From an uncultured Myxococcales bacterium (lineage in GTDB: Bacteria; Myxococcota_A; Polyangia; GCA-2747355; CAZCFB01): a stretch of DNA of 64,000 nt. The translations under genes were made by a program, and so were the position numbers. The first letter of the stretch is position 1. Each line of letters starts with the position of its first letter. Below the pieces are notes generated by a model that worked only from the letters and a program-made list of their open reading frames with translations, was not told the DNA's origin and did no database searches. The stretch lies in the NCBI GenBank assembly GCA_964511535.1, contig CAZEFW010000015.1:3754-67753 (forward strand). The letters are read 5' to 3'. Below are positions 501 through 57,813 of this stretch, piece after piece.

Positions 501-1054
501 TCGCCCTGCTCGTAGAACACCACGCCCGGGATCTGCCGCCGCTCCACCTCGGCGCGGACCACCTCGTCCACGACGATGGCCGAGCAGCTCTCGGCCAGGC
601 GGAACAGGCGCAGCCCGCGGGCGCGGTCCTCGTCAATCACCAGGCTGTCGAAGCCGGTGGCCAGCGGCCCGCCCGGCATCCCGGGCATCAGGGCCGAGGC
701 CGCCAGGTCCGCGGCCGCCACCAGCCCCAGCACGTTGAAGGCGACGTAGTCGGCGTGGCGCTCCCCGGCCTCAGGGTCGATGAGCAACGCCGGGAACAGC
801 TCCAGGTTGGTGACGCCCACCGCCTCGAGCGCCTCGAGCAGGTCGGCCCGCATCACCGGGAAGGCCTCGGCGTCGTACAGCGCGCCGAGGTTGCCCGGCT
901 CGTCCGGATCCATATCCAGGGTGTACTCCAGGGGCGTGGGCACCTCGATGGCCAGCTTGCGCCCCCGGTACCAGGGGCCGCCGGGCAGCTCCGGCCCCTC
1001 CTCGATGTCCACGCCAGGATAGGGGCCCTCTCCAACCATCACGAAATGGGCCAT
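488..1054 (-). CDS. Hypothetical cytoplasmic protein (188 aa); weak resemblance to DUF1629/Imm-type immunity proteins
   Basis: Complete ORF, acidic, no signal peptide, GC3-rich codon usage; last gene of a coupled operon. Confidence 0.5.
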   Translation of the reverse strand: MAHFVMVGEGPYPGVDIEEGPELPGGPWYRGRKLAIEVPTPLEYTLDMDPDEPGNLGALYDAEAFPVMRADLLEALEAVGVTNLELFPALLIDPEAGERHADYVAFNVLGLVAAADLAASALMPGMPGGPLATGFDSLVIDEDRARGLRLFRLAESCSAIVVDEVVRAEVERRQIPGVVFYEQGEWSG

Positions 1055-1111
1055 GAAGAGATAAACGCACCGCCGCCGGTGAAGGTCAAGCTGGCCGGCG
1101 GCGCCGCCGCC

Positions 1112-1903
1112 TCAGAACATGCAGGGGATCTGCAGGTTGAGCAGCACCTTGTCGCCGGCCTTCTTGACGGCGTAGGTGGGCGAGCGGACGTCCACGTTGC
1201 GCTCCTGATTGCTGGCGTTGCGCAGGGTGATACGGAACCAGCTGGCCCGGCCCGCCGGGATGTCCTTGAGCGTCAGGGTGTAGCTGAAGAGCGTCCGGTC
1301 CAGGGTGACCAGGGAGCGCGGGTAGATGGCCAGGGCCTCGGCGTCCACCACGGAGATGGCGTACGGCTGCCAGGCGCCGGTGTTGCCCGACTTGCAGCGC
1401 ACGGTGCCCTCCATGGTGCCGGTCTCGTGGGACACCATGTCCAGGGTCAGGTCGGTCTGCTTGCCCGCCACCAGGTCCACGGTCTGCACCTTCTGCTGCC
1501 GGTAGGTGCGCAGGCCGGCGGCGGTCACCAGCCACGCCACGGCGCCGACGCTGTATGAAGGCCCGCTCGGCACGGTGAGGCTCAGCACCACCTCGCCCGA
1601 GGCGCCCTCCCCCGCGCCGACGCCCTTTTTGGGGTCGGGCCAGGTGCCGGCCACGGTCTTCTTGCCCGAGGCGCCCACGGTGACGCGCACCAGCTTGGGG
1701 AACTGGTTGTCCTTGGCCGACTGGCCCAGGCGGAACAGCCCCTGGCTGTCCCAGGGCGAGTAGGAGCCGCCCCCGGTGAGGGCCGCGGGGGGCGTGTCCA
1801 GGACAACGGACAGGGCGACATACTCCTGGTCCATGGGATCGACCAGGCAGCCGCCGGCGAGCAGCGCCCACAGCAGGGCCAGGGTCCGCAGGGTGAGGGT
1901 CAC
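1112..1903 (-). CDS. Lipoprotein, hypothetical (263 aa)
   Basis: N-terminal signal peptide with lipobox LLAGGC; start overlaps the upstream stop (ATGA-type coupling). Confidence 0.6.
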   Translation of the reverse strand: MTLTLRTLALLWALLAGGCLVDPMDQEYVALSVVLDTPPAALTGGGSYSPWDSQGLFRLGQSAKDNQFPKLVRVTVGASGKKTVAGTWPDPKKGVGAGEGASGEVVLSLTVPSGPSYSVGAVAWLVTAAGLRTYRQQKVQTVDLVAGKQTDLTLDMVSHETGTMEGTVRCKSGNTGAWQPYAISVVDAEALAIYPRSLVTLDRTLFSYTLTLKDIPAGRASWFRITLRNASNQERNVDVRSPTYAVKKAGDKVLLNLQIPCMF

Positions 1904-2700
1904 TTGAACGCCCCCTTGGGTACGCCGCGGACGGTGATGCGTACCGGCGCGGTGAAGGTCTCCGGCGTGGAGGTGCCGCCGCTCTTGCCGTCGCCCACGC
2001 CCTCGCCCGCGCCGCCGCCCTCGGTGCAGCCGCAGGCGGCGGTCTCGCGCTGGGCCTGGCGCTCACGCTGGGCCGTGCCCTCGGCGCGCTGGATGTCCTC
2101 AAGGTCGAGCTCTCCGGCGGGGGGCGCCCAGGCGGGCGGGGGCTGATACCGGGCGGCGTCGGCGAGCAGCGCCGCCGGCGGGGGGCCCTGCACCGGGGCG
2201 GTCTTGCCGTCGGACAGCAGCGCGACGCCCTGCCCGGCGCGGACCTGGCGCCGCGCGCCGCCAGCCCGCGAGACGTTGACCATCCCGGACGTGACGTACA
2301 GCTTGCCCGGGGCCAGCAGCATCACCGCGCCCGCCCGGGGGGCGACCTTCCAGCCGCTCCAGCTGACCACCGCCGGGCCGCCCGCCAGGCGCATGGCCCC
2401 CGGTCCGGAGAAGGACAGGCCGCCGAGGAACGGATCCTCCGGCGTGAGCCTGGCCGGGCCGACCACCCCCACGGCCACGGCTCCCATCACGAGCTGAGCC
2501 ACCGCGCCCCGGGCCAGGACGAGGGTCTTCTTTTCGGCCACGACGCCGCCGGCGCCCTTGAGCGGCGCGCCGTCCAGGGTCGCCTCGCCCACCAGGGAGA
2601 GCAGGCTCAGCCCCGGCCCCGGCGCGCCGGGCTCGGGCGCGGCGCTCGCGCTGGAGGCCGCCAGCAGCAGCAGCAAGGTGAAGGCTCCGGTGCGCATCAT
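1900..2700 (-). CDS. Secreted FecR-like domain protein (start MMRTGAF..., about 267 aa)
   Basis: Signal peptide; the ATG overlaps the TGA of the upstream gene (AATGATG). The track ORF 1900..2874 is an upstream extension in the same frame. Confidence 0.55.
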   Translation of the reverse strand: MMRTGAFTLLLLLAASSASAAPEPGAPGPGLSLLSLVGEATLDGAPLKGAGGVVAEKKTLVLARGAVAQLVMGAVAVGVVGPARLTPEDPFLGGLSFSGPGAMRLAGGPAVVSWSGWKVAPRAGAVMLLAPGKLYVTSGMVNVSRAGGARRQVRAGQGVALLSDGKTAPVQGPPPAALLADAARYQPPPAWAPPAGELDLEDIQRAEGTAQRERQAQRETAACGCTEGGGAGEGVGDGKSGGTSTPETFTAPVRITVRGVPKGAFK

Positions 2701-4243
2701 TGGTAGCTCCACGAGACGTTGACCGACCCGAGGTGGCGCCGGATGTCGAAGCTGGCCACGGTGGAGGGGCGCCAGTCGCGTTGATAGGAGGCCCACACGC
2801 GAAAGCCGAGGGGCAGCGTCCGTCCCAGCTCCACCGCGAGCTGGATCTGGTGGTCCTCGCGCAGCTCCTTCCACGGGCCTCCCTCCGAGTGGGGGAAACG
2901 CTGGTGCTCGTAGGCGCCGCGCAGGCCGAGCACCAGGTCCAGGGGCAGCAGCAGCGACCCGCCCACCCCCTGGCCGTAGGCGAGGGCCGTGTAGTAATCC
3001 CGGTCGGCCATGCGGTAGCGGCCGTAGAGCCAGAACAGCAGCCGCAGGCGATCCGAGAGCACCGACAGCCCGTGCTCCAGCGACAGCTCCAGGCCGAGGT
3101 TGCTGCGGGGGAAGTGGGCGAAGGTCTCCCGGGCCACGCTGTAGGTCACGCGGGTGGCCCCGCCGTCAGCGGCCCGGCGCTCCAGGGTCAGGTGCCCTGC
3201 GTGGCGCTCGAGGAAGATGTGGTGGTCGTCGGCCACCGGTGGCGTGCCGTCCTCGAACAGCTCGTTGAACCCGTCGAGGAACACCAGGTCGAAGCTGTAG
3301 CTGGCCCCGAGGGTCCAGAGGTCCGGGCCGGAGGTGAGCACCCGCGAATAGCCCGCCACGGTGGACAGGGCGGTGGCGGCCACGTCAGACGCCGTGGGCG
3401 AGCCGCCGCCGGTGTCGGCCGGAAAGTAGAAGGTGCGCGCCACGCCGACCCTGCCCTCCACCCGGTTGAACCGATCGATCCAGGGGCGCAGGGTGAGGCT
3501 GCCCGCCAGGGAGAGGCCGAAGACCGGGTCCCCCTGGGCGTCATGCTCGTACAGCGGGTTTTCGTCCACCAGTCCGCCGGCGGCCAGGGAGCCGGAGAGG
3601 AACCCGGAGGGCAGGCCCCCTGCGTCGTGGGTCGCGCGCATCAGGCGGCGGGCCAGCTCACCCCGCTCGCCCAGCAGCAGGGGCGACAGCACGGCGCGGC
3701 TGCGGTCCAGCTCCCGCGCCCGGAACAGCGCAAGGGCCAGCTGCAGATCCGACTCCTGGCGTGGGCCCCCCTTCAGCTTGCGGGCCGCCCGCAGGGCCGC
3801 GGCCGCCTCGGCGGGCTCGTCCATGGCGAGGTAGGCGATGCCGAGGTAGTGCGCGGCGGCCCAGGAGCGCGGGGCGAGCTCGTGCGCCCGGCTCAGGGCG
3901 CGCACCGCCCAGACGGCGTTCCCCTCGGCCAGGTAGATCAGCCCGAGGTCCAGCTGCAACCGCGCGTCCTGCGGGGCCAGGCGGGCGGCGCCGCGCAGCA
4001 CCCGCCGCCCCTCCTCGAGCTGGCCCAGCCGCGCCAGGGCCAGGCCCAGGTGGTGCGCCGCGGCCAGGTGCTCCGGGTTCCCGCGCAGCGCGGCGCGCAG
4101 CAGGGGCACGGCCTTGCCCAGCTCGCCCTGCTGGTAGCGCAGGATCCCGCGCGCGGCTGACAGCTCCGGGGGCACGTCCGCGGCCAGCGCCGGGGCCGCC
4201 GCGAGGAACAACAGCAGGCCTGAGAGCAGGCTACTGCGCATTG
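2697..4243 (-). CDS. TPR-repeat N-terminal domain plus C-terminal outer-membrane beta-barrel-like protein (about 515 aa from MRSSLLSG...)
   Basis: Signal peptide; TPR-like repeats (AAHHLGLALARLG, AAHYLGIAYLAMDEP); the C-terminus alternates hydrophobic residues and ends ...SVNVSWSYQ (aromatic OMP-like terminus); GGGAG RBS before the ATG at 4243. Confidence 0.6.
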
Positions 4244-10426: not shown

Positions 10427-10440
10427 CAATATCCGCTGAC

Positions 10441-10490
10441 CTGAAGCCTGAAGTCTGAAGCCTGATGCCTGGGCTCGCGAAGCGAGCTCT
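10441..10490. repeat. Copy of dispersed repeat family 1 (CTGAAGCCTGAAGTCTGAAGCC ... GCGAAGCGAGC)
   Basis: Same heptamer/GCGAGCGAAGCGAGC modules recur at 26527-26904, 34511-34791, 50449-50562 and 57745-57780. Confidence 0.7.
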
Positions 10491-17100: not shown

Positions 17101-17700
17101 AAGACCATCAAGCTGCGCGGCGGTGAGGCGGTCTCCATCAAGGTGGTCATGCCCGTCGAGCCGGCCAAGGAGCCGGACGCCGCACCTCCCAAGGAGGAGC
17201 CTGCTCCCAAGGAGGAGCCTGCTCCCAAGGAGGAGCCTGCTCCCAAGGAGGAGCCCATACCGGAGCCGAAGCCGGAGCCCAAGGCCGAGCCGAAGCCGGA
17301 GCCCAAGGCCGAGCCGAAGCCGAAGCCCAAGCCCAAGCCCAAGGCTGACCCGAAGCCGAAGCCCAAGCCCAAGGCCAAGCCCAAGCCCAAGCCCAAGGCC
17401 AAGCCCAAGCCCAAACCGAAGCCCAAGGCAAAGCCGAAGACCAAGCCCAAGACCAGGGTGCGCAAGCCGCGGGGCAAGCCTGGCATGCTGGTGGTGGCTT
17501 CGAGGCCGTGGGCCAAGATCTACGTGGACGGCAAGGCCACTGGGCGCAACTCCCCCATCCCCCCCTCCAACCCGCTGTCCATTCCGGCGGGCCGGCGAAA
17601 GATCACCCTGGAGGCCAAGGGGCAGAAATTTCACTTCACGGTCACCATCAAGGCCGGGAAGCTGAGCAAGCTGGTGAAGATCCTGCCGGTCAAAAAATAG
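14194..17700 (+). CDS. Ser/Thr protein kinase with a long disordered Pro/Ala/Glu-rich region, a TM segment and two C-terminal PEGA-like domains separated by (EEPAPK)n/(PKPK)n repeats
   Basis: Hanks kinase motifs (VGGMAEIFKG, VAIKRI, HRDISPQN, DFGIAK, GYMSPE). GGAGG sits 7 nt upstream of TTG 14194; the track ORF starts at GTG 14125. TM segment LLPVVLFLVILLLAGGGAAAYYFLVV. Confidence 0.85.
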   Translation: MAKKFGRYELIDRISVGGMAEIFKGRSSGAAGFEKIVAIKRILPHLSDDEDFINMFIDEAKLSANLNHSNIGQVFEFGRIEGRYFIAMEFIHGKDLRRLQQFFRSKNKVMPITMAVRVVLEICNALEYAHNKVDAMGNSLGIVHRDISPQNVIISYEGAVKLIDFGIAKALSRSTKTAEGNLKGKFGYMSPEQVEGGEIDGRSDLFALGTLLFELVTGKRLFQGESELAVLEKVRKAQVPSPSGMNPSVPQPLEAIIMRALSRRPDQRYQHAEEMHEDLEGFAQQAKLVFTGKQLSRWMKKTFEDELRQEKRSAGEESQPSMPTSPGSGETGKAVSGTAPTEPQPQVEDVDRSTAFLDPSTLGGAGKAPQPGKAQQPGQAQQPVQGEQTSDRVAQLRASLLGPQAAGAEGGSRQEKKTVPFDPAAHSRPPGPSTPLTGAQAGVPGAAGEATGRARTMPLLQDEPAVRPGNQAQGSEPTPEDLVAQLQSVDVSDDQATMVVDDDEAVEVAAPGNPTVRQVVVSPGEGEVPAAQVPHEVLNAPTLRPDAVGPGGVTGDQVLERARQEQQASEAAGDAAQDPAAVTLQGHGAGGFQDSFTMVDPDAIEDLVPKPGAQMAAPPETAPGSEQLTAADLPDLPDPSELMDPFDDGPTVVDPDASAELFKQLQATDGDPQPPARTMAETQLDAEAQPEQPVEMVVSPDDSTPLDSIPTAAKVPVVPDEPTPAQEPELAPDPYAEEEEHAATALYNPPVPMQQLLDETSAQDIAAKQAAGVAPTMTPDQMAEAQGGVTVPVPPDTLEEAPAMQPPMAQVPTPQPADLAPAALDPLAQVETPAMAGPGAAAPMPAPPPKKKRGFLLPVVLFLVILLLAGGGAAAYYFLVVKKDGTGTATTAGKTATGTAAGKAATTAEAGDSDKPGIVTIQSDSPISGKLLLNGKDRGTLANTGKYSLEDIPAGTHELEIRDGDRVFKKTIKLRGGEAVSIKVVMPVEPAKEPDAAPPKEEPAPKEEPAPKEEPAPKEEPIPEPKPEPKAEPKPEPKAEPKPKPKPKPKADPKPKPKPKAKPKPKPKAKPKPKPKPKAKPKTKPKTRVRKPRGKPGMLVVASRPWAKIYVDGKATGRNSPIPPSNPLSIPAGRRKITLEAKGQKFHFTVTIKAGKLSKLVKILPVKK

Positions 17701-26547: not shown

Positions 26548-26904
26548 CGCTCGCTTCGCTCGCGGACTTGAGACTTGAGACTTGAGGGCAATTCGCCCCT
26601 GCAGCCAGGGCTCCCGCACCCGGATCTGAGGTAGCGCTCGCTTCGCTCGCGGACTTGAGACTTGAGGCTTGAGACTTGAGGGTAGATAGCCCCTGCGGCC
26701 TGGGCTTTTCAAGCCTCAAGCCCAAAGCCTCAAGCCTGGCCGACGCGAAGCGGCGGCCTAGTTGAGGTAGCGCTCGCTTCGCTCGCGGACTTGAGACTTG
26801 AGGCTTGAGACTTGAGGGTAGATAGCCCCTGCGGCCTGGGCTTTTCAAGCCTCAAGCCCAAAGCCTCAAGCCTCAAGCCTGGCCGGCGCGAAGCGGCGGC
26901 CTAA
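26527..26904. repeat. Tandem array of repeat family 1: one short unit plus two units of about 146 bp, each unit internally palindromic (GACTTGAGACTTGAGG...CCTCAAGCCCAAAGCCTCAAGCC)
   Basis: Direct inspection. Units begin at about 26527, 26613 and 26759 and overlap the 3' ends of the flanking convergent genes. Confidence 0.85.
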
Positions 26905-28109
26905 TGCAGGTCCTCGTCGTTGACCCAGCCCTCGCGGCCGAACAGGTCGCGGACCTTGACCTTCTTGCCCTTGCGGTCCAGCTCCCGCAGGCGGTAGTCC
27001 TTGCCGACCTTGCCGGTTGAGCGGCCCTTGCCGCTGGCGCGGGACTTGAGCGGGAGCGCCTTCTTGGCCCGGCGCTTGTACTTCTTGAGCAGCTTCTTGT
27101 TGGCCTTCTGCTTGCTCACCACCACGTTGGCCGTGACCTGCTGCATTGAGTAAGCGCTGTTCAGCTCCCCCGCCTTGACCTTGTCCAGCCCCTTCTTCTT
27201 GAGCGCCTTGACCTCCTGACGGTCCAGCCCGGCGGACCGGGCGAAGGCGGTGCCCCGGGCCTTCTCGGCGGAGCTGCGCAGCTTGGCCTGCTGTAGGTAG
27301 AAGTGGCTGGTCATGTGCAACACCTTGCCGTCGTCGTAGCGGAAGGAGACGGCGATGGGCGAGTGGCCGTACTTCTTGCGCATCTCCTTGCTGTCGATGA
27401 GCACCTTGACCTTCTGCTTGTTCAGGATCCGGATCGGGTAGCTCGACCCCTCCAGCCACCAGCGCGGGTTCTCCTTCATGCCCTTGATGTTCTGCAGGAA
27501 CGGCGCGTCGTCGTCGTGAATCGACACCTTCACCACGTCGTCCTTGGTGTTGCGCTTGCCGCGCTTGACGTAGCCGGGGAAGGCCCTGGTCAGCAGGGTG
27601 AGCGCCCAGTCGGTGGTCACAAGGAAGCCGCCGGTCTTGACGAAGCGGTTGACCTTCTTGGTGGCCGCCTTGCTCAGCCGCCCGGGGCAGTTGATCATCA
27701 GCGTCTGGGTGCTCATGAGCGGGATGCGCGACACCAGCCGCGGCGGCACCACCACATGCTTGACCTTCAGCGCCTTGAGCACGTCCTGCACCCGGTCGTA
27801 GCCACCGCGCACCACCACGATGTCAGCGGCGCCGGCCTTGCGCAGCAGCTTGAGATCCCGCGGGCGCTTCTTGGCCATGCGCTTCTTGACGATCTCCGAC
27901 GCCACCTCGTTGGCCTGGCGCATGCGCTTTGAGCCGAGCTTGCCCTTGGCGGTGCCGTCGGTGGACTTGGCCGCGGGCTTGCTCTTGGTCACGGCCTGCA
28001 TGAACTCTTCCTGCTCCGGCGAGACCTTCCCGCCGCCCGCCCGGGCCGGCGCGGCCATGGCGAGGGTGAGGGTCAGGGCGACTGCGGTGTTGGCGACCAG
28101 GCGTGACAT
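26901..28109 (-). CDS. Secreted Lys-rich protein, paralog family A (GATase1/ThuA-like core followed by a basic C-terminal tail)
   Basis: Signal peptide; paralog of the 42673..43890 gene (shared blocks GGYDRVQDVL, HVV(V/I)PPRLV, VNCPGR, GGFLVTTDWAL, SPRWWLEG(S/A)SYPIR, LTSHFYLQQ). Confidence 0.6.
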   Translation of the reverse strand: MSRLVANTAVALTLTLAMAAPARAGGGKVSPEQEEFMQAVTKSKPAAKSTDGTAKGKLGSKRMRQANEVASEIVKKRMAKKRPRDLKLLRKAGAADIVVVRGGYDRVQDVLKALKVKHVVVPPRLVSRIPLMSTQTLMINCPGRLSKAATKKVNRFVKTGGFLVTTDWALTLLTRAFPGYVKRGKRNTKDDVVKVSIHDDDAPFLQNIKGMKENPRWWLEGSSYPIRILNKQKVKVLIDSKEMRKKYGHSPIAVSFRYDDGKVLHMTSHFYLQQAKLRSSAEKARGTAFARSAGLDRQEVKALKKKGLDKVKAGELNSAYSMQQVTANVVVSKQKANKKLLKKYKRRAKKALPLKSRASGKGRSTGKVGKDYRLRELDRKGKKVKVRDLFGREGWVNDEDLH

Positions 28110-28187
28110 CGGGTCCTCTCCTGTTGGGGTATCCCCGTTGCCAACGCACGGGGTGCGGTGAGGTTCTGAAAAAAATCAGATAACCTT

Positions 28188-29471
28188 GTGGACGACATGG
28201 GATCGGTCCTGACATCGCTGCTGCTGCTGCTGCCCTTCCTGCTCTGGGACCTGGCGGCTTACCTCCTGCGGCGCCGCGGGGACCGCTCACCGGAGCGCAG
28301 GGCGGCGCTGCTGCGCCACTTCACCGGGGAAGAGCTGGAGGCGGGGCGGCGCCATGTGCTGATCCATAACCGCCTGGTCCCGCTGTCCCGGGCGCTGTAC
28401 TACGCATACTTCGTCGCGCTGCTGCCCGGCGGCCTCGGGTCCTGGATGGAGCAGCAGCTGCTCCACCTGACGGGCGGGCGCTGGGTCCTCGCGCTGCCGC
28501 TGTTCCTGCTGGCGGTGATGCTGCTCTGGACCGTCACGCGCCTGCCCCTCGAGGCGTACCGGGAGCTGGTCATCGAGCGGAACCTGGGCCTCTCCAACAC
28601 CACGGCGGGGCTCTTCGTCGCCGACGCGGCCAAGGGGTTGCTGGTGGGCTGGGTCCTGGCCTGGGTGGTCGGCTTCTGCGTCATGGGGCTGGTGCGAGCC
28701 ATGCCCGGCACCTGGCCGGTCCCGGCGGCGGCGACCCTGCTCTGCATCAGCGCCTTCATCACCTGGATCAGCCCGTGGTTCATCGCGCCGCTGTTCAACA
28801 AGTTCCAGCCGCTGCAGGACGAGGCGCTGGAGGCGGACCTGCGCGCGCTGGTGGACCGCGCCGGGCTCGCGCTGGAGCATGTCCATGTCATGGACGCCAG
28901 CCGCCGCTCGCGCTACCTCAACGCCTACTTCACCGGCATGGGCAACAGCCGGCGCGTGGTGCTGTACGACACCCTGGTGGAGGCGTGCCCGCCTGGAGAG
29001 ATCCTCTCGGTGGTGGCTCACGAGCTGGGGCACTGGCGCGGCCGGCACATCGCCAAAGGGTTCGCCATGTCCAGCGTCGGGCTGGTGCTGGGGCTGCTGC
29101 TGCTGAAGGGCGCCCTCGCGTGGCCCGCGGCCCTGGCGCTGCTCGGCCTCCCCGGGCCGGACAGCCTGGTGCTGCTGGTGGCCCTGCCCTTCGTGGCCGC
29201 GCTTGCGGGCACGCTCACCGCCCCGCTGGGCGCGGCCATCTCCCGGCGCTTCGAGCGCGAGGCGGATCAGGCGGCGTTCGACCTCACCGGCGACCCGGAC
29301 GCCTTCGTCAGCCTGGAGCAGCGGCTGGTGCGCCGGGCCCAGGCGGATCTGCTGACGCCGAAGCTGCTGCACTGGTGGTATGCGAGCCACCCGCTGCCGG
29401 AAGACAGAATCGCTGCTGCGCTGCGCTGGCAGCGATTAAACAAAAAACAAGGAACAAGAAACTCCAAATAA
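28188..29471 (+). CDS. M48-family zinc metallopeptidase (Ste24/HtpX-like) with N-terminal TM helices
   Basis: HELGHW zinc-binding motif with a downstream E; multiple TM segments. The last approximately 11 codons are encoded by the left inverted repeat of the adjacent cassette. Confidence 0.8.
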   Translation: MDDMGSVLTSLLLLLPFLLWDLAAYLLRRRGDRSPERRAALLRHFTGEELEAGRRHVLIHNRLVPLSRALYYAYFVALLPGGLGSWMEQQLLHLTGGRWVLALPLFLLAVMLLWTVTRLPLEAYRELVIERNLGLSNTTAGLFVADAAKGLLVGWVLAWVVGFCVMGLVRAMPGTWPVPAAATLLCISAFITWISPWFIAPLFNKFQPLQDEALEADLRALVDRAGLALEHVHVMDASRRSRYLNAYFTGMGNSRRVVLYDTLVEACPPGEILSVVAHELGHWRGRHIAKGFAMSSVGLVLGLLLLKGALAWPAALALLGLPGPDSLVLLVALPFVAALAGTLTAPLGAAISRRFEREADQAAFDLTGDPDAFVSLEQRLVRRAQADLLTPKLLHWWYASHPLPEDRIAAALRWQRLNKKQGTRNSK

Positions 29472-29920
29472 GAAATGAGCTAGCTTCCGCGGTCGCGGGC
29501 TGTTTTCGTCGAGGCGGTCAAGATGGCTATGAGTTCAGTAGCCTCCCTCAGGAGTCTGTCCGTGGGGCCGTCAGGCAGGAGATCCGATCTGACAGCCAGC
29601 CTCAGCCAGTAGCGTGACTCCCTCAGTTCTTTTGTACAGATCCTGAGCTTGTGGATGAAATCGGCTCTACTCTCTGCGCTTCTCGCCTCTTCGTAGTTCG
29701 CTCCCGGCGCGGTGCCTGCGCGAAGCAACTGTCCCTTGATGTGGGCGGTCGAGGGGGCTCCCTTGAATTTCGAGCAGATCCAAACAATGTTCGAGGCGAA
29801 GTTCAACAGCCTCTCGGATATATCCTGTCCAGGGCGTTTGTTTGTCATGCATGGTTTTCGCCCCTCGCCCTCGAATGTTGCTTCAATTTTTAATTTCTTG
29901 TTTCTTGTTCCTTGTTTTTT
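29442..29920. mobile_element. Small cassette bounded by perfect 21-bp inverted repeats (AAAAAACAAGGAACAAGAAAC at 29442..29462; reverse complement at 29900..29920) carrying a four-helix-bundle protein gene; AT-rich relative to its surroundings
   Basis: Inverted repeats seen directly; local GC is clearly lower than the flanks. Confidence 0.6.
29480..29848 (-). CDS. Four-helix-bundle protein (23S rRNA intervening-sequence protein family, PF05635-like)
   Basis: Pattern ERLLNFASNIVW...GANYEEA(R)S..S..DF..KL.I...EL.ES..WL.LA resembles the IVS four-helix-bundle family. Start at MTNKRP; the track ORF 29480..29947 extends into the right inverted repeat. Confidence 0.55.
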   Translation of the reverse strand: MTNKRPGQDISERLLNFASNIVWICSKFKGAPSTAHIKGQLLRAGTAPGANYEEARSAESRADFIHKLRICTKELRESRYWLRLAVRSDLLPDGPTDRLLREATELIAILTASTKTARDRGS

Positions 29921-29995
29921 GTTGTCATTTTTTGTTCCCCTTCGCACATCTTCAAGCCGCTATCGTATTAGGATCTCCCTCTCTCAGGAGTTCAT

Positions 29996-30691
29996 ATGCC
30001 CTCGATAACGGTTCTTGTAATCGACGACGACGCTCACCTTCGCGAGGTGGCTCAGTACGCCCTGGAGCGGGAGGGGTATGTGGTGGAGACGGCGGCGGAT
30101 GGGGCGGCGGGGCTGGCTCGGGCTTTGGCTGGCGGTGTGGATCTGGTGGTGCTCGACGTCATGATGCCCGAGCTGGACGGGCGCGAGGTGTGCCGGCGCA
30201 TCCGGGCCGAGGGTAACCTGCCCATCATCTTCCTCTCATCCCGCGGCGACGAGGTGGACCGCATCGTCGGGCTCGAGCTGGGCGGGGACGATTACATGAC
30301 CAAGCCCTTCTCTCCGCGGGAGCTGGTGGCCCGGGTCAAGGCGGTGCTGCGGCGTCACAAGGCGCCGGCCGAGGCGGCGCCGGCGAAGGGCCCCGAGGTG
30401 CTCGAGCTGGGCCCGGTTCGGCTCGACCCCGCGCGCCACGAGCTCACCTGCCACGGCGAGCCGGTGGCGCTGACGGTCACCGAGTTCACGCTGCTGCAGG
30501 TCATGCTGGGGCGTCCGGGCCGGGTGATGACCCGCGCCGGGCTGGTGGAGGAGGTCTACAGCTTCAACCACCACATCACCGAGCGCACCATCGACACCCA
30601 CGTGCGCCGCATCCGCGCCAAGTTCCGCGCCCTGGACCATGATCCCATCGAGACGGTGCACGGCCTGGGCTACAAGGCCCGCGAGGCGTAG
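29996..30691 (+). CDS. OmpR/PhoB-family response regulator
   Basis: Receiver motifs ([14 protein letters not shown]) plus a winged-helix output domain. Confidence 0.9.
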
Positions 30692-30697
30692 GGCGCG

Positions 30698-32203
30698 GTG
30701 GACCGGTTGAGGCGCGCGCTGGCATGGCTGCACCGCCACCTGGTGGCCATCCGCACCCGGCTGCTGCTGATCAACCTGATCATCGTGATGGTGCCGGTGG
30801 TGGGCATCGAGTGGGCGCGCACCTTCGAGCGAGAGGGCCTGCAGGCGCTGGAGCAGGACATGCAGCACCAGGCCCAGCTGCTGCGCACGCTGCTGGAGAA
30901 GAACCTCGACTGGGCCGGGATCCCGCGGTTCGAGCTGGTCTCCCCTGCCCTGGAGGCCATGGCCAAGCGCACCCGCACGCGCATCCGCATCCTCGACCGG
31001 GAGGGGCGGCTGCTGGCGGACTCCCACCGGCGCGGCGCGCCCGAGGGGCCGGAGCCGGCCGTCTCCGGCCTCTGGACCCGGGGCAAGCAGCCCGAGCGGC
31101 GCCACGCGGCCACCAGGCCGTCCACCGATCCCGGGCCGGTGCTCGATCGCGTGGAGGTCCGCGCCGCGCGCAAGGGGCAGCTCGGCACCGCCACCCGCAT
31201 CCACAAGCGCATCGGGCGGGTGTTCCTGTTCCTCACCATGCCGGTGATGGTGGAGCGGCGGGTGCGCGGCATCGTCTACCTCACCCGCTCCACCGTGCCG
31301 GTAATGCAGTCGATGATCCGCCTGCGCCAGCACCTGATCCAGGTGCTGACCGTGGCCCTCTGCGTCACCGCCCTGCTTACGCTCTTTTTGGCCGGCACCA
31401 TCTCGCGCCCCCTCGCCCGGCTGAGCCGCTCGGCCGGCCGTATCAGCTCTGGCGACCGGACCATCAGCCTGCAGCTGCGACGCGCCGACGAGATCGGCCA
31501 GCTGGCGCGCACCTTCGACGATCTGGTGCAGCGCCTGGACGCCCGCGCGCGCTACATCTCGGAGTTCGCGGCGAACATGTCCCACGAGTTCAAGACGCCG
31601 CTGGCCTCCATCCGGGGCGCGGCCGAGCTGCTGGACGACGGGGCCGACGACGACCCGGCGGCGCGCCGGCGCTTCCTGGCCAACATCCAGGAGGACGTGG
31701 CGCGGCTGGACCGGCTGGTCTCGCGCATCCTGGAGCTGAGCCGCATCGAGGCCACCCTGGAGCTGCGCGAGCCGCTGGACCTGGCAGACCTGGTGCTCGA
31801 GGTGGCCGACCGGTTCCCCGACCACCCGGTGGAGGTGGAGCTGCTGCATGACCGCCTGCCCTATAGCGGCAACGGGCCCCACCTCACCGCGGCCATGGCC
31901 GCGCTGGTTGAGAACGCAGTGCGGTTCAGCCCGGACGAGAGTCCGGTGGTGCTGCGCGCCGCCGCCGCGGGAGACGGCGGGGTGGTCATCTCGGTCATCG
32001 ACCGCGGCCCCGGCATCAGCGCGGCGAACCGGGACAAGGTGTTCGAGCGCTTCTTCACCACCGAGAGCAAGCGGGGCGGCACCGGCCTGGGCCTGGCCAT
32101 CGTCACGGCGGTGGTGGGGGCCCACGGCGGGGAGGTGACCCTGCAGAGCGAGCCGGGCGAGGGGACCACCTTCACCATCGAGCTGCCGCCCGCGGCGGCG
32201 TGA
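30698..32203 (+). CDS. Sensor histidine kinase (two TM helices, HAMP, HisKA, HATPase_c)
   Basis: H-box HEFKTPLASIRG; N, G1 and G2 boxes (DRGPGI, GGTGLGL). Confidence 0.9.
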   Translation: MDRLRRALAWLHRHLVAIRTRLLLINLIIVMVPVVGIEWARTFEREGLQALEQDMQHQAQLLRTLLEKNLDWAGIPRFELVSPALEAMAKRTRTRIRILDREGRLLADSHRRGAPEGPEPAVSGLWTRGKQPERRHAATRPSTDPGPVLDRVEVRAARKGQLGTATRIHKRIGRVFLFLTMPVMVERRVRGIVYLTRSTVPVMQSMIRLRQHLIQVLTVALCVTALLTLFLAGTISRPLARLSRSAGRISSGDRTISLQLRRADEIGQLARTFDDLVQRLDARARYISEFAANMSHEFKTPLASIRGAAELLDDGADDDPAARRRFLANIQEDVARLDRLVSRILELSRIEATLELREPLDLADLVLEVADRFPDHPVEVELLHDRLPYSGNGPHLTAAMAALVENAVRFSPDESPVVLRAAAAGDGGVVISVIDRGPGISAANRDKVFERFFTTESKRGGTGLGLAIVTAVVGAHGGEVTLQSEPGEGTTFTIELPPAAA

Positions 32204-34420: not shown

Positions 34421-34476
34421 CAACAGTCGACCGTTAGTAGTCGACAGTTCACAGTCGACAGTTGACACCCAACAGC
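34421..34476. repeat. Repeat family 2 (GTCGACAGTT-type: CAACAGTCGACCGTTAGTAGTCGACAGTTCACAGTCGACAGTTGACA)
   Basis: Related copies at 46541..46573 and in the inverted pair 47909..47938 / 48009..48040. Confidence 0.7.
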
Positions 34477-34510
34477 TTGGGGTCGGTCGTCTTCAGTCGG
34501 CAGGGCACCC

Positions 34511-34791
34511 TCCCCTCAAGCCTCAAGCCCCAAGCCGCCGAGCGCAGCGAGGCCACGGATCACGCGGCAGGATGCCGCGTCTACACAAGCCGCCGAGCGA
34601 AGCGAGGCCCAACCATCTCCCCTGAAGTCTGAAGCCCGAAGCCTGAAGCCGGCGAGCGCAGCGAGCCAGCCATCTCCCCTCAAGCCTCAAGTCTCAAGCC
34701 CCAAGTCTCAAGCCGGCGAGCGAAGCTCGCCAGCCATCTCCCCTGAAGCCCGAAGCCTGAAGCCTGAAGCCAGGCGAGCGAAGCTCGGCCC
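34511..34791. repeat. Array of about four units of repeat family 1 (CATCTCCCCT[C/G]AAG[C/T]CT[C/G]AAGCC...GCGAGCG[A/C]AGCGAGCC)
   Basis: Direct inspection. Confidence 0.8.
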
Positions 34792-45528: not shown

Positions 45529-45777
45529 GCCGTGCTCGCCTCGCTACGCTTAGAACGTGCAACGCCCCTCCGGGGGAGCGCCCCGTGCTCGCCTCGCTAC
45601 GCTTGGAACGTGCAACGCCCCTCCGGGGGAGCGCCCCGTGCTCGCCTCGCTACGCTTGGAACGTGCAACGCCCCTCCGGGGGAGCGCCCCGTGCTCGCCT
45701 CCTTCGGAGGCTCCGCGATGAAGCGGGGCGCTGCTCCGCGATGAAGCGGGGCGCTGCTCCGTGATGAAGCGGGGCGC
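45529..45777. repeat. Tandem repeats: 3 x 53 bp (CCGTGCTCGCCTCGCTACGCTTRGAACGTGCAACGCCCCTCCGGGGGAGCGCC) then 3 x 23 bp (CGCGATGAAGCGGGGCGCTGCTC)
   Basis: Direct inspection. A single degenerate copy lies at 48096..48175, downstream of the paralogous Cys-rich gene. Confidence 0.85.
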
Positions 45778-46499
45778 TACTTGAACGGGTTGTAGCTCTG
45801 GCAGGTGTAGCCGGCCTTGAGGGCGCCGCCCTGGAACTCCGGATTGTTGTTCTTGTCCAGGGTCAGCAGGATGAGCCACTGCTCGCCGCCGGCGATGGTG
45901 GCCGAGCCCTTGATCATCACCTGCCCGTTGTACCAGACCTCCATGGGCATGTTGTTGCCGATGGGCATCTGGTGGCACTGCACGCCCACCACGGTGCTGC
46001 AGGCGCCGGACCACGCCGACAGGGATACCTGGCTCGAGCCGGTGCCGATCTTGAGGGTCAGGGTGATGGTCTTGTTGTTCTTGTCCACCAGGTTGTGACA
46101 GAACTTGCCCACCGACTTCTTGCCGGTGCCGCCCTTGTCCAGCTTCACGCCGCCGCCGTCCAGCTTGGAGCAGTCGCAGCCGCTGAAGCCCTTGCCGTCC
46201 TGGTTGCAGCTCTGCACGCCCTTGACCCCGCCGCTGCAGCTGCACTGCTGGGTGGTGCCGGGCACGCAAACCTTGCCGCCGGAGCCGCCGTCATGCTTGG
46301 TGCCGCCGCAGTTGCACGTGCTCCAGGAGGCGCCGGTGATGTTGCAGGTCTGCACGCCCTGAGCCCCGCCGGGGCAGGCGCACACCTGGGTGGCGCCCGG
46401 CGCGCAGATCTTGTTGTTGTTGCCACCGTCATCGTCGGCGCAAGCCAACGACAGGGCCGCTGCGGACAGCACCACACAGATAAGCCAGGACCTCTTCAT
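45777..46499 (-). CDS. Secreted Cys-rich protein (Myxococcales-type Cys-rich repeat), paralog 1
   Basis: Signal peptide; CAPGATQVCACPGGAQGVQTCNITGASWSTCNCGG repeat; 78-80% identical blocks with the 48171..48899 gene. Confidence 0.6.
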   Translation of the reverse strand: MKRSWLICVVLSAAALSLACADDDGGNNNKICAPGATQVCACPGGAQGVQTCNITGASWSTCNCGGTKHDGGSGGKVCVPGTTQQCSCSGGVKGVQSCNQDGKGFSGCDCSKLDGGGVKLDKGGTGKKSVGKFCHNLVDKNNKTITLTLKIGTGSSQVSLSAWSGACSTVVGVQCHQMPIGNNMPMEVWYNGQVMIKGSATIAGGEQWLILLTLDKNNNPEFQGGALKAGYTCQSYNPFK

Positions 46500-46574
46500 G
46501 TCAAAACTCCAGGGCTAAATTATTTCCACTGACCATCTTAAAACTGTCGACTGTCGACTGTCGACTCCCGACGC

Positions 46575-47831: not shown

Positions 47832-47908
47832 GGGCGCACCTCCGGGGGATGAGTGGTCGCAGATTTTAGCAGAGCGTTGGACAGAGCTGTCCGTGAAGGG
47901 CGGCCAGC

Positions 47909-48040
47909 GGTTGACGGTTGACAGTTAACAGTTGAAGGCGGCGAGGCAACGGGTGGTTAGCATCCAAGGGCGTGAAATTGAAGCCAGACGCCATCACCTG
48001 CACGAAGGCTCAACCGTCAACTGATAACTGTCAACGAACC
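47909..48040. repeat. Inverted pair of family-2 repeats (GGTTGACGGTTGACAGTTAACAGTTGA ... TCAACCGTCAACTGATAACTGTCAAC) separated by about 70 bp
   Basis: Direct inspection; lies upstream of the MR/MLE-family gene. Confidence 0.7.
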
Positions 48041-50448: not shown

Positions 50449-50559
50449 AAGATGAGGATGGCTTCAGACTTCAGGCTTCAGGCTTCAGGTGTGATTGCCT
50501 TGGCACTTCAGCCTGAAGCCCGAGGCCTGAAGCCCGAAGCCGCAGCCGCGCAGCGGCTG

Positions 50560-57733: not shown

Positions 57734-57813
57734 GGCTGGCCCCTGGCCGGCAGGCTTGAGGCTTCAGGCCTCGGGCGCAAATGAATCCTGCCCCCGGGCT
57801 TCGGTCCGGGGGC

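What the first reader, a model, noticed from the sequence alone, without database searches (positions are those of the whole stretch)
29442..29920. AT-rich cassette with perfect 21-bp terminal inverted repeats encoding a four-helix-bundle (rRNA-IVS family) protein, inserted into the 3' end of the M48 peptidase gene
AAAAAACAAGGAACAAGAAAC (29442..29462) and its exact reverse complement (29900..29920) flank 437 bp of much lower GC carrying a 122-aa four-helix-bundle gene. The left repeat supplies the last codons (KKQGTRNSK*) of the peptidase, and the right repeat is translated in the track ORF of the cassette gene (KKQGTRNKK), which is the signature of an insertion. Proteins of this family are encoded inside 23S rRNA intervening sequences and are suspected selfish elements; here one sits in a protein-coding context.
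Basis: seen in the sequence. Interest (0 to 1): 0.55.

Follow-up and report, generated by a model that had tools for sequence, protein, structure and literature searches.

The report
Mobile four-helix-bundle cassette, heptamer-repeat arms
A small, low-GC gene for an Avd/rRNA-IVS-type four-helix-bundle protein, bracketed by inverted arrays of 7-base repeats, was inserted between a peptidase gene and the regulator gene that used to abut it; the same repeat-bracketed layout surrounds about 80% of 156 related genes sampled across many bacterial phyla, which points to a widespread, poorly understood mobile cassette.

Summary
A perfect 24-nt inverted repeat (29439-29462 / 29900-23; 38 nt at 87%) encloses a 122-aa minus-strand gene of family PF05635/TIGR02436. 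The enclosed 437 nt is 54.5% GC, against 69% for the window.

The insertion reading is supported. Three sets of M48 orthologue loci have M48 directly followed by, or overlapping, the response-regulator gene with no cassette. Two other relatives carry a cassette at the same site.

The repeat is not a conserved transposon end. Each arm is a tandem array of heptamers (AAACAAG-type here, GGGAAAC and AACAAAA in the two syntenic relatives), and each locus has its own self-complementary pair.

This is a family-wide rule. In 156 homologous loci from many phyla, 80% have complementary flanking arms, against 7% for cross-locus pairings and about 2-3% for control placements. The flanks have strong 7-nt periodicity. 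The heptamer type tracks protein similarity.

The layout matches the ORF-carrying 23S rRNA intervening sequence of Coxiella, whose stem RNase III cuts in vitro.

Best reading: a free-standing IVS-type mobile cassette whose arms pair around the ORF. How it moves and what the protein does remain inferred. I found no paper that generalises the heptamer-arm architecture.

The parts
29438..29476 (+). Left arm: A-rich heptamer array (AAACAAA AAACAAG GAACAAG AAACTCC AAATAAG AAAT). The perfect core is 29439-29462. It overlaps the last ~10 codons and the stop of M48.
29480..29848 (-). Four-helix-bundle protein gene (122 aa; ATG at 29848-29846, stop at 29482-29480). GC 0.57 and GC3 0.70, against 0.90-0.93 GC3 in the neighbouring genes.
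   Evidence: PF05635 and TIGR02436 above cut-off. AF2 pLDDT 93.6 with four helices. Foldseek hits 2RLD, 2GSC and Avd. pN 0.235 against pS 0.79 versus the L003 copy.
29886..29938 (+). Right arm: T-rich heptamer array, the reverse complement of the left arm (perfect core 29900-29923), with two further degenerate units to 29938. On the gene's strand it lies 51 nt upstream of the ATG.
28188..29471 (+). Ste24-like M48 peptidase gene, the upstream neighbour. Its non-conserved C-terminal tail and stop codon are supplied by the left arm.
29996..30691 (+). OmpR-type response-regulator gene (followed by the histidine-kinase gene 30698-32203). It abuts or overlaps M48 in relatives that lack the cassette.
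29959..29968 (+). GCTATCGTAT motif between the right arm and the regulator gene. It is conserved in the three cassette-bearing loci. Its role is unknown (a new promoter for the split operon, or for the cassette gene).

Best explanation
This is a free-standing copy of the kind of element known from ORF-carrying 23S rRNA intervening sequences. It is a ~500-bp low-GC module made of one gene for an Avd/S23p-like four-helix-bundle protein, bracketed by two inverted arrays of about 4-6 heptamers. SHOWN: it was inserted at the junction of the M48 peptidase gene and the response-regulator/kinase genes, which are contiguous in cassette-free relatives. SHOWN: arms plus ORF form one unit. Nearly every homologous gene has its own pair of mutually complementary heptamer arrays. 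The heptamer type travels with the protein lineage. Near-identical cassettes sit in unrelated flanks. INFERRED: in any transcript that crosses the cassette, the arms pair into a duplex of 24 bp or more that closes off the ORF. As in the Coxiella IVS (shown in vitro there), this duplex would be an RNase III substrate. Cleavage would cut the cassette RNA out of host transcripts, making insertion into rRNA or operons tolerable, and would define or limit the cassette's own mRNA. INFERRED more weakly: the pentameric, RNA-binding-type protein recognises the periodic G-N-N-R-A-A-Y repeats. The way the cassette moves is unknown.
For: Identity. Insertion: empty sites in L086-88, L090/91 and L092, filled sites in L003/4 and L089; GC3 0.70 against 0.90-0.93. 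Arms kept complementary while their sequence changes: window 24/24 (AAACAAG), L003 27 nt at 93% (GGGAAAC), L089 36 nt at 89% (AACAAAA). Family-wide: inverted-repeat score >=11 in 67/79 genome loci against 23/854 control placements, and in 56/78 metagenome loci against 7/408; own-partner 80% against cross-locus 7%. Lag-7 autocorrelation is 0.40 against 0.26. Heptamer identity tracks protein identity: 75% for the same heptamer, ~45% for different ones, p=4e-18, with cross-phylum pairs sharing both. Discrete module: 84-93% nt identity confined to arm-ORF-arm, with 0.4-1.9 kb of unrelated flanks. The closest non-syntenic relative has similar A-rich arms in a different context. The structural representative BT_0352/2RLD lies between araD and araA with 31-nt, 97% complementary (AATTGAC)n arms. 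RNA: the MFE fold of the sense transcript closes the ORF with the arm stem, z=-3.4. Across the family the 5' arm ends a median 29 nt before the ATG and the 3' arm starts a median 14 nt after the stop, so both should be in the mRNA. Precedent: the Coxiella IVS is 428 nt with an S23p ORF, a 28-bp terminal stem, GACAGAT heptamers at its 5' end, and is cut by RNase III in vitro (PMC4990558).
Against: There is no strand-specific RNA signature. Arm mismatches are G.U-compatible on the sense strand 90 times and on the antisense strand 80 times (n.s.), and half are transversions. A plain stem requirement does not explain why the arms are tandem heptamers with a shared R-A-A-Y core. No sigma-70-like promoter was found, no Rfam family matches, and no target-site duplication is visible. 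There is only one copy in the 64-kb window. Some loci have local hairpins on each side of the ORF rather than one long-range pair, and ~20% have no detectable arms. RNase III cleavage, transcription and mobility are untested here. The window protein does not belong to the NF0089xx subfamilies (19.9 and 17.2 bits against cut-offs of 124 and 137).
Confidence: 0.6

Rival explanations
1. The heptamer arrays are primarily binding sites for the cassette's own ring-shaped pentameric protein, one R-A-A-Y-N3 unit per subunit, as HutP or TRAP rings bind periodic triplets. The protein would bind the single-stranded leader or the DNA ends to autoregulate or to mobilise the cassette. Arm complementarity would be secondary. 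This partly overlaps the best explanation.
For: Strict 7-nt periodicity with variable sequence but a shared G-N-N-R-A-A-Y core (4.60 bits against a null maximum of 4.19). The phase and the AAA(Y) core are conserved in the three syntenic cassettes while the other positions change. Arrays have a median of 4.6 units, IQR 3.7-5.6. Heptamer type co-varies with the protein. The 5' array abuts the RBS and ATG. Homologues 2RLD and 2GSC crystallise with five chains, and Avd is a positively charged pentamer that binds RNA (10.1101/2023.10.23.563531). There is no G.U bias. Period-7 arrays are also enriched elsewhere near these genes (49 against <=5 for any other period), and 29% share the cassette's heptamer.
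Against: No binding data exist for any free-standing family member. The co-variation could be plain co-inheritance. It does not by itself explain why the second array is an exact inverted copy, including the order of unit variants (e.g. L041, 42/42). The unit count depends on the detection threshold.
Confidence: 0.25
2. A non-autonomous MITE-like transposon whose inverted repeats are recognised by a transposase encoded elsewhere. The four-helix-bundle gene is a passenger.
For: Terminal inverted repeats, small size, low GC, and presence/absence polymorphism. In one genome a family member is a passenger in a three-copy ~2.05-kb element with IS-like ORFs.
Against: Arm sequences differ between syntenic copies and among loci (58 distinct heptamers). 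There is no conserved terminal motif beyond R-A-A-Y and no target-site duplication. The ORF is under purifying selection with 21 invariant residues and always travels with the arms. No second copy of the arms occurs in the window.
Confidence: 0.1
3. An invertible (phase-variable) segment: recombination between the arms flips the gene relative to an outside promoter.
For: A perfect 24-bp inverted repeat flanks a single gene.
Against: The gene has the same orientation (antisense to M48) in the window, L003 and L089, despite 18-25% amino-acid divergence of M48. No recombinase gene lies within 3 kb. Arm lengths and sequences are unlike known invertase sites.
Confidence: 0.03
4. An ordinary resident gene. 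The inverted repeat is chance low-complexity sequence, or a terminator shared by convergent genes.
For: The arms are A/T-rich simple sequence lying between convergent genes. One short terminator-like hairpin lies just downstream of the gene's stop (29486-29499).
Against: 0 of 100 shuffles give the repeat. The loop is 437 nt. Relatives have empty sites. The same architecture occurs in 80% of 156 loci against 2-7% of controls.
Confidence: 0.02
5. The accessory (Avd) subunit of a diversity-generating retroelement.
For: Avd-like fold, TM 0.65-0.8 to 4DWL/8UB7. PF05635 is common next to DGR reverse transcriptases (PMC10053308).
Against: Called genes within 3 kb are a peptidase, regulator, kinase, CarboxypepD_reg and DUF6930/DUF7309 proteins and an unknown 402-aa protein; none is a reverse transcriptase. 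No template/variable repeat pair appears among the direct repeats.
Confidence: 0.01

Closest known systems
ORF-containing 23S rRNA intervening sequences (Coxiella burnetii IVS; Leptospira IVS)
   Same: A ~430-480-nt element with a single PF05635-family ORF, terminal inverted repeats forming a ~28-bp stem around the ORF, and tandem heptamers (GACAGAT) at the 5' end. It is regarded as selfish (PMC4990558).
   Different: This cassette is not in an rRNA gene; it sits between protein-coding genes and antisense to them. The protein belongs to TIGR02436 and scores far below the NF008911/NF008912 cut-offs. RNase III excision is untested.
BT_0352 of Bacteroides thetaiotaomicron (PDB 2RLD) and other free-standing 'four helix bundle protein' genes
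   Same: Same family (profile E=7e-26; TM 0.78-0.88). A 98%-identical homologue is likewise wedged between two operon genes (araD/araA) and flanked by 31-nt, 97% complementary heptamer arms.
   Different: Different heptamer (AATTGAC) and same-strand orientation relative to its neighbours. I found no paper describing its flanks.
Heptamer simple-sequence arrays: Xanthomonas GGGAATC convergent pairs (PMC4692102) and cyanobacterial STRR repeats (own knowledge)
   Same: Tandem heptamers in intergenic DNA, often as convergent (inverted) pairs able to form hairpins. The window itself has 13 such arrays.
   Different: Those were described without an enclosed ORF and were discussed as G-quadruplex or fingerprinting repeats. 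That paper does not mention S23p or intervening sequences.
Avd, accessory protein of diversity-generating retroelements
   Same: Four-helix-bundle fold. Avd is a pentameric, positively charged barrel that binds RNA (10.1101/2023.10.23.563531).
   Different: No reverse transcriptase or template repeat here; sequence identity is 15-19%.
HutP / TRAP-type ring proteins that read periodic triplets in RNA (own knowledge)
   Same: A possible working analogy: an oligomeric ring and a short motif repeated at a fixed spacing (HutP: UAG every 7 nt).
   Different: Unrelated folds, and no binding evidence here. This is analogy only.

Membership tests
PF05635 / TIGR02436 four-helix-bundle (S23p, IVS protein) family | HMM score above the curated cut-off | tested here: met
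   PF05635 56.5 bits (cut-off 33.8); TIGR02436 81.3 bits (cut-off 24)
PF05635 / TIGR02436 four-helix-bundle (S23p, IVS protein) family | Four-helix-bundle fold like 2RLD/2GSC | tested here: met
   AF2 pLDDT 93.6, helices 8-25, 34-56, 61-87, 96-121; Foldseek TM 0.73-0.88 to 2RLD and ~0.8 to 2GSC
PF05635 / TIGR02436 four-helix-bundle (S23p, IVS protein) family | Homopentameric ring | not testable with these tools
   Only inferred from the five-chain crystal entries 2RLD and 2GSC
rRNA intervening sequence (IVS) | Located inside a 23S (or 16S) rRNA gene helix | tested here: not met
   Flanked by M48 and response-regulator genes; no rRNA or other Rfam match in 27000-32000
rRNA intervening sequence (IVS) | Terminal inverted repeats forming a long stem that encloses the element | tested here: met
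   24 bp perfect, 38 nt at 87%; the MFE fold closes the ORF with this stem
rRNA intervening sequence (IVS) | Excision from the precursor RNA by RNase III | not testable with these tools
   Shown in vitro for Coxiella (PMC4990558)
NF008911 / NF008912 (PRK12275) subfamilies | HMM score above cut-off | tested here: not met
   17.2 and 19.9 bits against cut-offs 137 and 124
Heptamer-armed four-helix-bundle cassette (architecture defined here) | Period-7 tandem arrays on both sides of the ORF, mutually reverse-complementary | tested here: met
   the same holds in 125/156 homologous loci
MITE / inverted-repeat transposon | Target-site duplication and a conserved terminal sequence shared by multiple copies | tested here: not met
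   No direct repeat abuts the arms. The arms occur once in the window and differ between syntenic copies. The whole genome is not available.
MITE / inverted-repeat transposon | Presence/absence polymorphism at orthologous sites | tested here: met
Diversity-generating retroelement | Adjacent reverse transcriptase and a TR/VR repeat pair | tested here: not met
   Gene content within 3 kb; direct repeats
Inverton (invertible promoter or gene switch) | Both orientations observed; a site-specific recombinase nearby | tested here: not met
   Same orientation in three diverged syntenic loci; no recombinase within 3 kb

The most novel reading that the evidence does not exclude
The four-helix-bundle pentamer and its G-N-N-R-A-A-Y heptamer arrays form a cognate protein-repeat pair. 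Together they would constitute a previously unrecognised class of minimal autonomous mobile element. The protein would bind its own arrays (about five units for five subunits). The element would invade hairpin loops, operon junctions and rRNA helices. ORF-less derivatives would seed the unexplained genome-wide excess of heptamer repeats: cyanobacterial STRR, Xanthomonas GGGAATC, and the 13 arrays in this window. This would explain both the 30-year-old rRNA-IVS ORF puzzle and the over-representation of heptamer repeats.
Probability: 0.2. Interest if true: 0.85.

Novelty: new variant of a known kind. Interest (0 to 1): 0.62.

Why it matters
Proteins of this family are annotated by the thousand as 'four helix bundle protein'. 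They turn up inside rRNA genes, cas operons and sugar operons, and they are homologous to the essential DGR cofactor Avd, yet they have no known function. This analysis shows that the gene almost always comes packaged between inverted heptamer arrays, that the package is gained and lost at orthologous sites, and that it is shared across phyla with its arms. That turns a scattered annotation into one definable element. It links the element to the ORF-carrying rRNA intervening sequences and possibly to bacterial heptamer repeats. It also names a tractable test case, BT_0352 in the Bacteroides arabinose operon. In practice, such cassettes split operons (here M48 / RR-HK) and rewrite the C-terminus of the upstream protein, which annotation pipelines do not flag.

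Tried and rejected
1. G.U versus A.C mismatch asymmetry, to show RNA-level selection: 90 against 80, not significant.

2. Arm 'polarity' as a test of inversion. I rejected this after realising that an A-first/T-first inverted repeat reads the same on both strands, so polarity does not change when the inner segment inverts.

3. dS comparison to date the cassette against its neighbours. It is inconclusive because GC3 of 0.9 in the neighbours caps their pS.

4. A flank motif apparently shared between the non-syntenic L173 and L089: not significant.

5. Loci without arms (L023/24/51 and others) as possible rRNA insertions: no rRNA found. L023/24/51 are passengers in a three-copy ~2.05-kb element with IS-like ORFs.

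6. Rfam on the window region and on 20 strong-arm loci: nothing relevant.

7. Sigma-70 promoter scan of 29300-30100: none found.

8. Other copies of the gene or the arms in the window: none.

9. Source naming via cluster look-up: no names. The organism is known only as a 69%-GC bacterium from JGI metagenome 3300009008. The nearest named M48 homologues (54-55% identity) are from Gemmatimonadota.

10. Six literature searches found no paper generalising the arm architecture. Subscription-only literature was not searchable.
Full report
OBSERVATION. These are the only two matches in the window at up to 3 mismatches, with none in 100 shuffles. The arms extend to 38 nt at 87% complementarity. Tandem Repeats Finder shows that both arms are period-7 arrays: 3.6 x AAACAAG and 4.3 x TTTCTTG. 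The 437 nt between the cores is 54.5% GC. M48 is 71.5%, the regulator gene 69.8% and the window 68.6%.

The enclosed minus-strand gene (29480-29848, 122 aa) passes PF05635 (56.5 bits) and TIGR02436 (81.3 bits). Its AlphaFold model is a confident four-helix bundle (pLDDT 93.6). The best structural matches are BT_0352/2RLD, Xcc0516/2GSC and then the DGR protein Avd. The left arm supplies the last ~10 codons and the stop of the Ste24-like M48 peptidase, whose Pfam domain ends at residue 414 of 427. The 'translated right arm' exists only in an over-long GTG-started ORF. The called product is 122 aa.

IS IT AN INSERTION? The window is part of JGI metagenome contig Ga0115649_1001040. M48 orthologues show both states of the site.

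- In L086-L088 (75% identical M48) the peptidase gene overlaps the response-regulator gene by 22 nt, with no cassette.
- In L090/L091 and L092 (63%) the gap is 50-100 nt, again with no cassette.
- L003/L004 and L089 carry a cassette at the same junction, in the same orientation.

By pairwise identity the window is sister to an unresolved trio: L003, L089 and the empty L086. The cassette was therefore gained or lost at least twice at this one site. The M48 tail after the conserved HPLPEDRIAAA is variable in all homologues. The cassette sits at the natural end of the gene and has re-specified its last residues. It also separates M48 from the RR-HK genes that follow it directly elsewhere. GC3 of the cassette gene is 0.70, against 0.90-0.93 in its neighbours. 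pN (0.235) is far below pS (0.79), so the protein is under purifying selection. In L089 the gene has an in-frame TGA but the arms are intact.

THE ARMS ARE HEPTAMER ARRAYS THAT CHANGE IN CONCERT. The three syntenic cassettes have different arms. The window has AAACAAG-type units (24/24), L003 has GGGAAAC (27 nt, 93%) and L089 has AACAAAA (36 nt, 89%). When aligned they keep the 7-nt phase and an invariant AAA(Y) every seven bases, while the other positions differ. Each pair remains complementary although the sequence has turned over. That requires selection for pairing, homogenisation between the arms, or cassette replacement.

A FAMILY-WIDE ARCHITECTURE.

- A genome scan with a family alignment gave 80 loci from many phyla. 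The best ungapped inverted repeat between the two 150-nt flanks scores >=11 in 67/79 loci, against 23/854 same-geometry placements elsewhere in those loci. Flank autocorrelation peaks at lag 7 (0.40 against 0.26) and lag 14.
- An independent metagenome set reproduces this: 56/78 against 7/408.
- Pairing each upstream flank with its own downstream flank gives 80% positives. Pairing it with another locus's flank gives 7%.
- Arrays have a median of 4.6 units. The upstream array ends a median 29 nt before the ATG, and the downstream array starts a median 14 nt after the stop.
- There are 58 distinct heptamers. After phase alignment they share G-N-N-R-A-A-Y (4.60 bits; null maximum 4.19).
- Heptamer type tracks protein similarity: 75% identity for identical heptamers and ~45% for unrelated ones (p=4e-18). 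Some pairs from different phyla share both, for example Lysobacteraceae and Chlorobiota at 80%.
- A group of GAACATC-type cassettes shares 84-93% nucleotide identity confined to arm-ORF-arm, with 0.4-1.9 kb of unalignable flanks in most pairs.
- The closest non-syntenic relative of the window's protein (60% identity) has similar A-rich arms next to fabZ/lpxA-like genes.
- A 98%-identical homologue of the crystallised BT_0352 lies between araD and araA, with 31-nt, 97% complementary (AATTGAC)n arms.

COMPARISON WITH WHAT IS KNOWN. The Coxiella 23S rRNA IVS is a 428-nt element with an S23p ORF and a 28-bp terminal stem. It has GACAGAT heptamers at its 5' end, and RNase III cuts at the first repeat in vitro (PMC4990558). 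That is the same anatomy, inside an rRNA helix. Convergent GGGAATC heptamer pairs were catalogued in Xanthomonas; that paper does not mention S23p or intervening sequences (PMC4692102). PF05635 genes have been noted inside cas operons (PMC3936711) and in CPR rRNA insertions (10.1101/2024.02.27.582315). Avd is described as an S23p-like pentamer that binds RNA (10.1101/2023.10.23.563531; PMC10053308). Six full-text searches found no paper stating that the family is generally flanked by inverted heptamer arrays. No Rfam family matches the arms.

MECHANISM. Shown: cassette identity, insertion polymorphism, arm complementarity and periodicity, and co-inheritance of arms and protein.

Inferred: any transcript across the cassette folds the arms into a duplex of 24 bp or more around the ORF (MFE -171.5 kcal/mol, z=-3.4). 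By analogy with the Coxiella IVS this duplex is an RNase III substrate. Cleavage would detach the cassette RNA from host RNA and define the cassette's own mRNA.

Evidence against a purely RNA-level reading:
- Arm mismatches show no G.U bias (90 against 80).
- A stem requirement does not explain tandem heptamers with a shared core.
- No promoter was recognised.

The main rival, or complement, is that the arrays are binding sites for the pentameric protein. The MITE, inverton, chance and DGR readings fare poorly (see the rivals section).

WIDER CONTEXT IN THE WINDOW. The window holds 13 period-7 arrays, against 0 in shuffles and <=2 for each of the other periods tested (5-11). Most are GC-rich CTTSAGR units arranged as ORF-less inverted pairs. 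Across 438 kb of flanks at least 400 nt from the family genes there are 49 period-7 arrays, against <=5 for any other period. Of the distant arrays at loci where the cassette's arm heptamer could be called, 29% (10 of 34) share the local cassette's heptamer, against 4% cross-locus. A 50-kb E. coli control has none. This hints at, but does not prove, a genome-wide link between the protein family and heptamer repeats.

VERDICT. This particular cassette is a new free-standing member of a known kind. The general heptamer-arm architecture and its co-inheritance with the protein appear not to have been described, and they make the family's function experimentally approachable.

Noticed in passing
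window 10440-10471, 26565-26880, 34422-34771, 46543-46566, 47908-47933, 50460-50541, 57751-57769: ORF-less GC-rich heptamer arrays (GACTTGA/TCAAGCC, CCTGAAG, CCTCAAG, GGCTTCA/TGAAGCC, ACTGTCG, GTTGACA). Several are inverted pairs with 20-30-nt loops. At score >=12 the window has 13 period-7 arrays (two of the listed intervals come only from the lower-threshold TRF run), against 0 in shuffles and <=2 for other periods. Their heptamers differ from the cassette's.
   Followed up: partly
window 26627-26873: A 136-nt unit repeated 1.8x at 100% identity. It contains a heptamer hairpin plus a copy of the 3' end of the upstream gene. In relative L003 the two flanking genes are only ~15 nt apart, so this block also looks like an insertion polymorphism.
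   Followed up: partly
L177 1436-1925 (Bacteroides metagenome contig; homologue of BT_0352 / PDB 2RLD): A 98%-identical homologue of the family's crystallised representative sits inside the arabinose operon between araD and araA. It is flanked by (AATTGAC)n / (ATTGTCA)n arms, 31 nt at 97% complementarity, plus a local hairpin upstream. This is a tractable model for experiments.
   Followed up: yes
L023, L024, L051 (one 7.3-Mb Deltaproteobacteria MAG contig), locus positions ~1052-3103: A family member is the last gene of a ~2.05-kb element present three times at 99% identity. Upstream ORFs (202 aa and a larger one) look IS-like by my reading; no family search was run on them. A 190-nt palindromic region with heptamer-like units follows the gene in place of flanking arms.
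   Followed up: partly
L089 3673-4047 (-): The syntenic cassette gene has an in-frame TGA (after ...YWLRLAL) while its 36-nt arms remain 89% complementary. It is either a pseudogene with maintained arms or a low-coverage assembly error.
   Followed up: partly
L086 3735-3760: The cassette-free M48/RR junction reads GGGAAGCGAAAAAGGAG: two R-A-A-type heptamer-like units that double as the regulator's ribosome-binding site. It could be a scar, a target, or coincidence.
   Followed up: no
window 29959-29968 (also L003 ~2786-2795 and L089 ~4143-4152): GCTAYCGTAT is conserved 25-35 nt upstream of the response-regulator start in all three cassette-bearing loci and absent from empty sites. It may be a promoter that arose with the operon split.
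   Followed up: partly
L131 ~411-520: Tandem duplication of the upstream heptamer arm together with the first codons of the four-helix-bundle gene.
   Followed up: no
window 45530-45778: Two adjacent tandem repeats: 53 nt x 3.2 (99% matches) and 23 nt x 3.0 (97%). Not examined.
   Followed up: no
window 17186-17455: A perfect 18-nt x 3.9 repeat followed by a ~190-nt 6/12-nt repeat (CCGAAG / AGCCCAAGCCCA). It may be a low-complexity coding repeat. Not examined.
   Followed up: no
window 26901-28109 (-): A 402-aa lysine-rich protein with no Pfam match on record. It is conserved divergently next to M48 in relatives at L003/L004, L089 and L090/L091. Function unknown.
   Followed up: no
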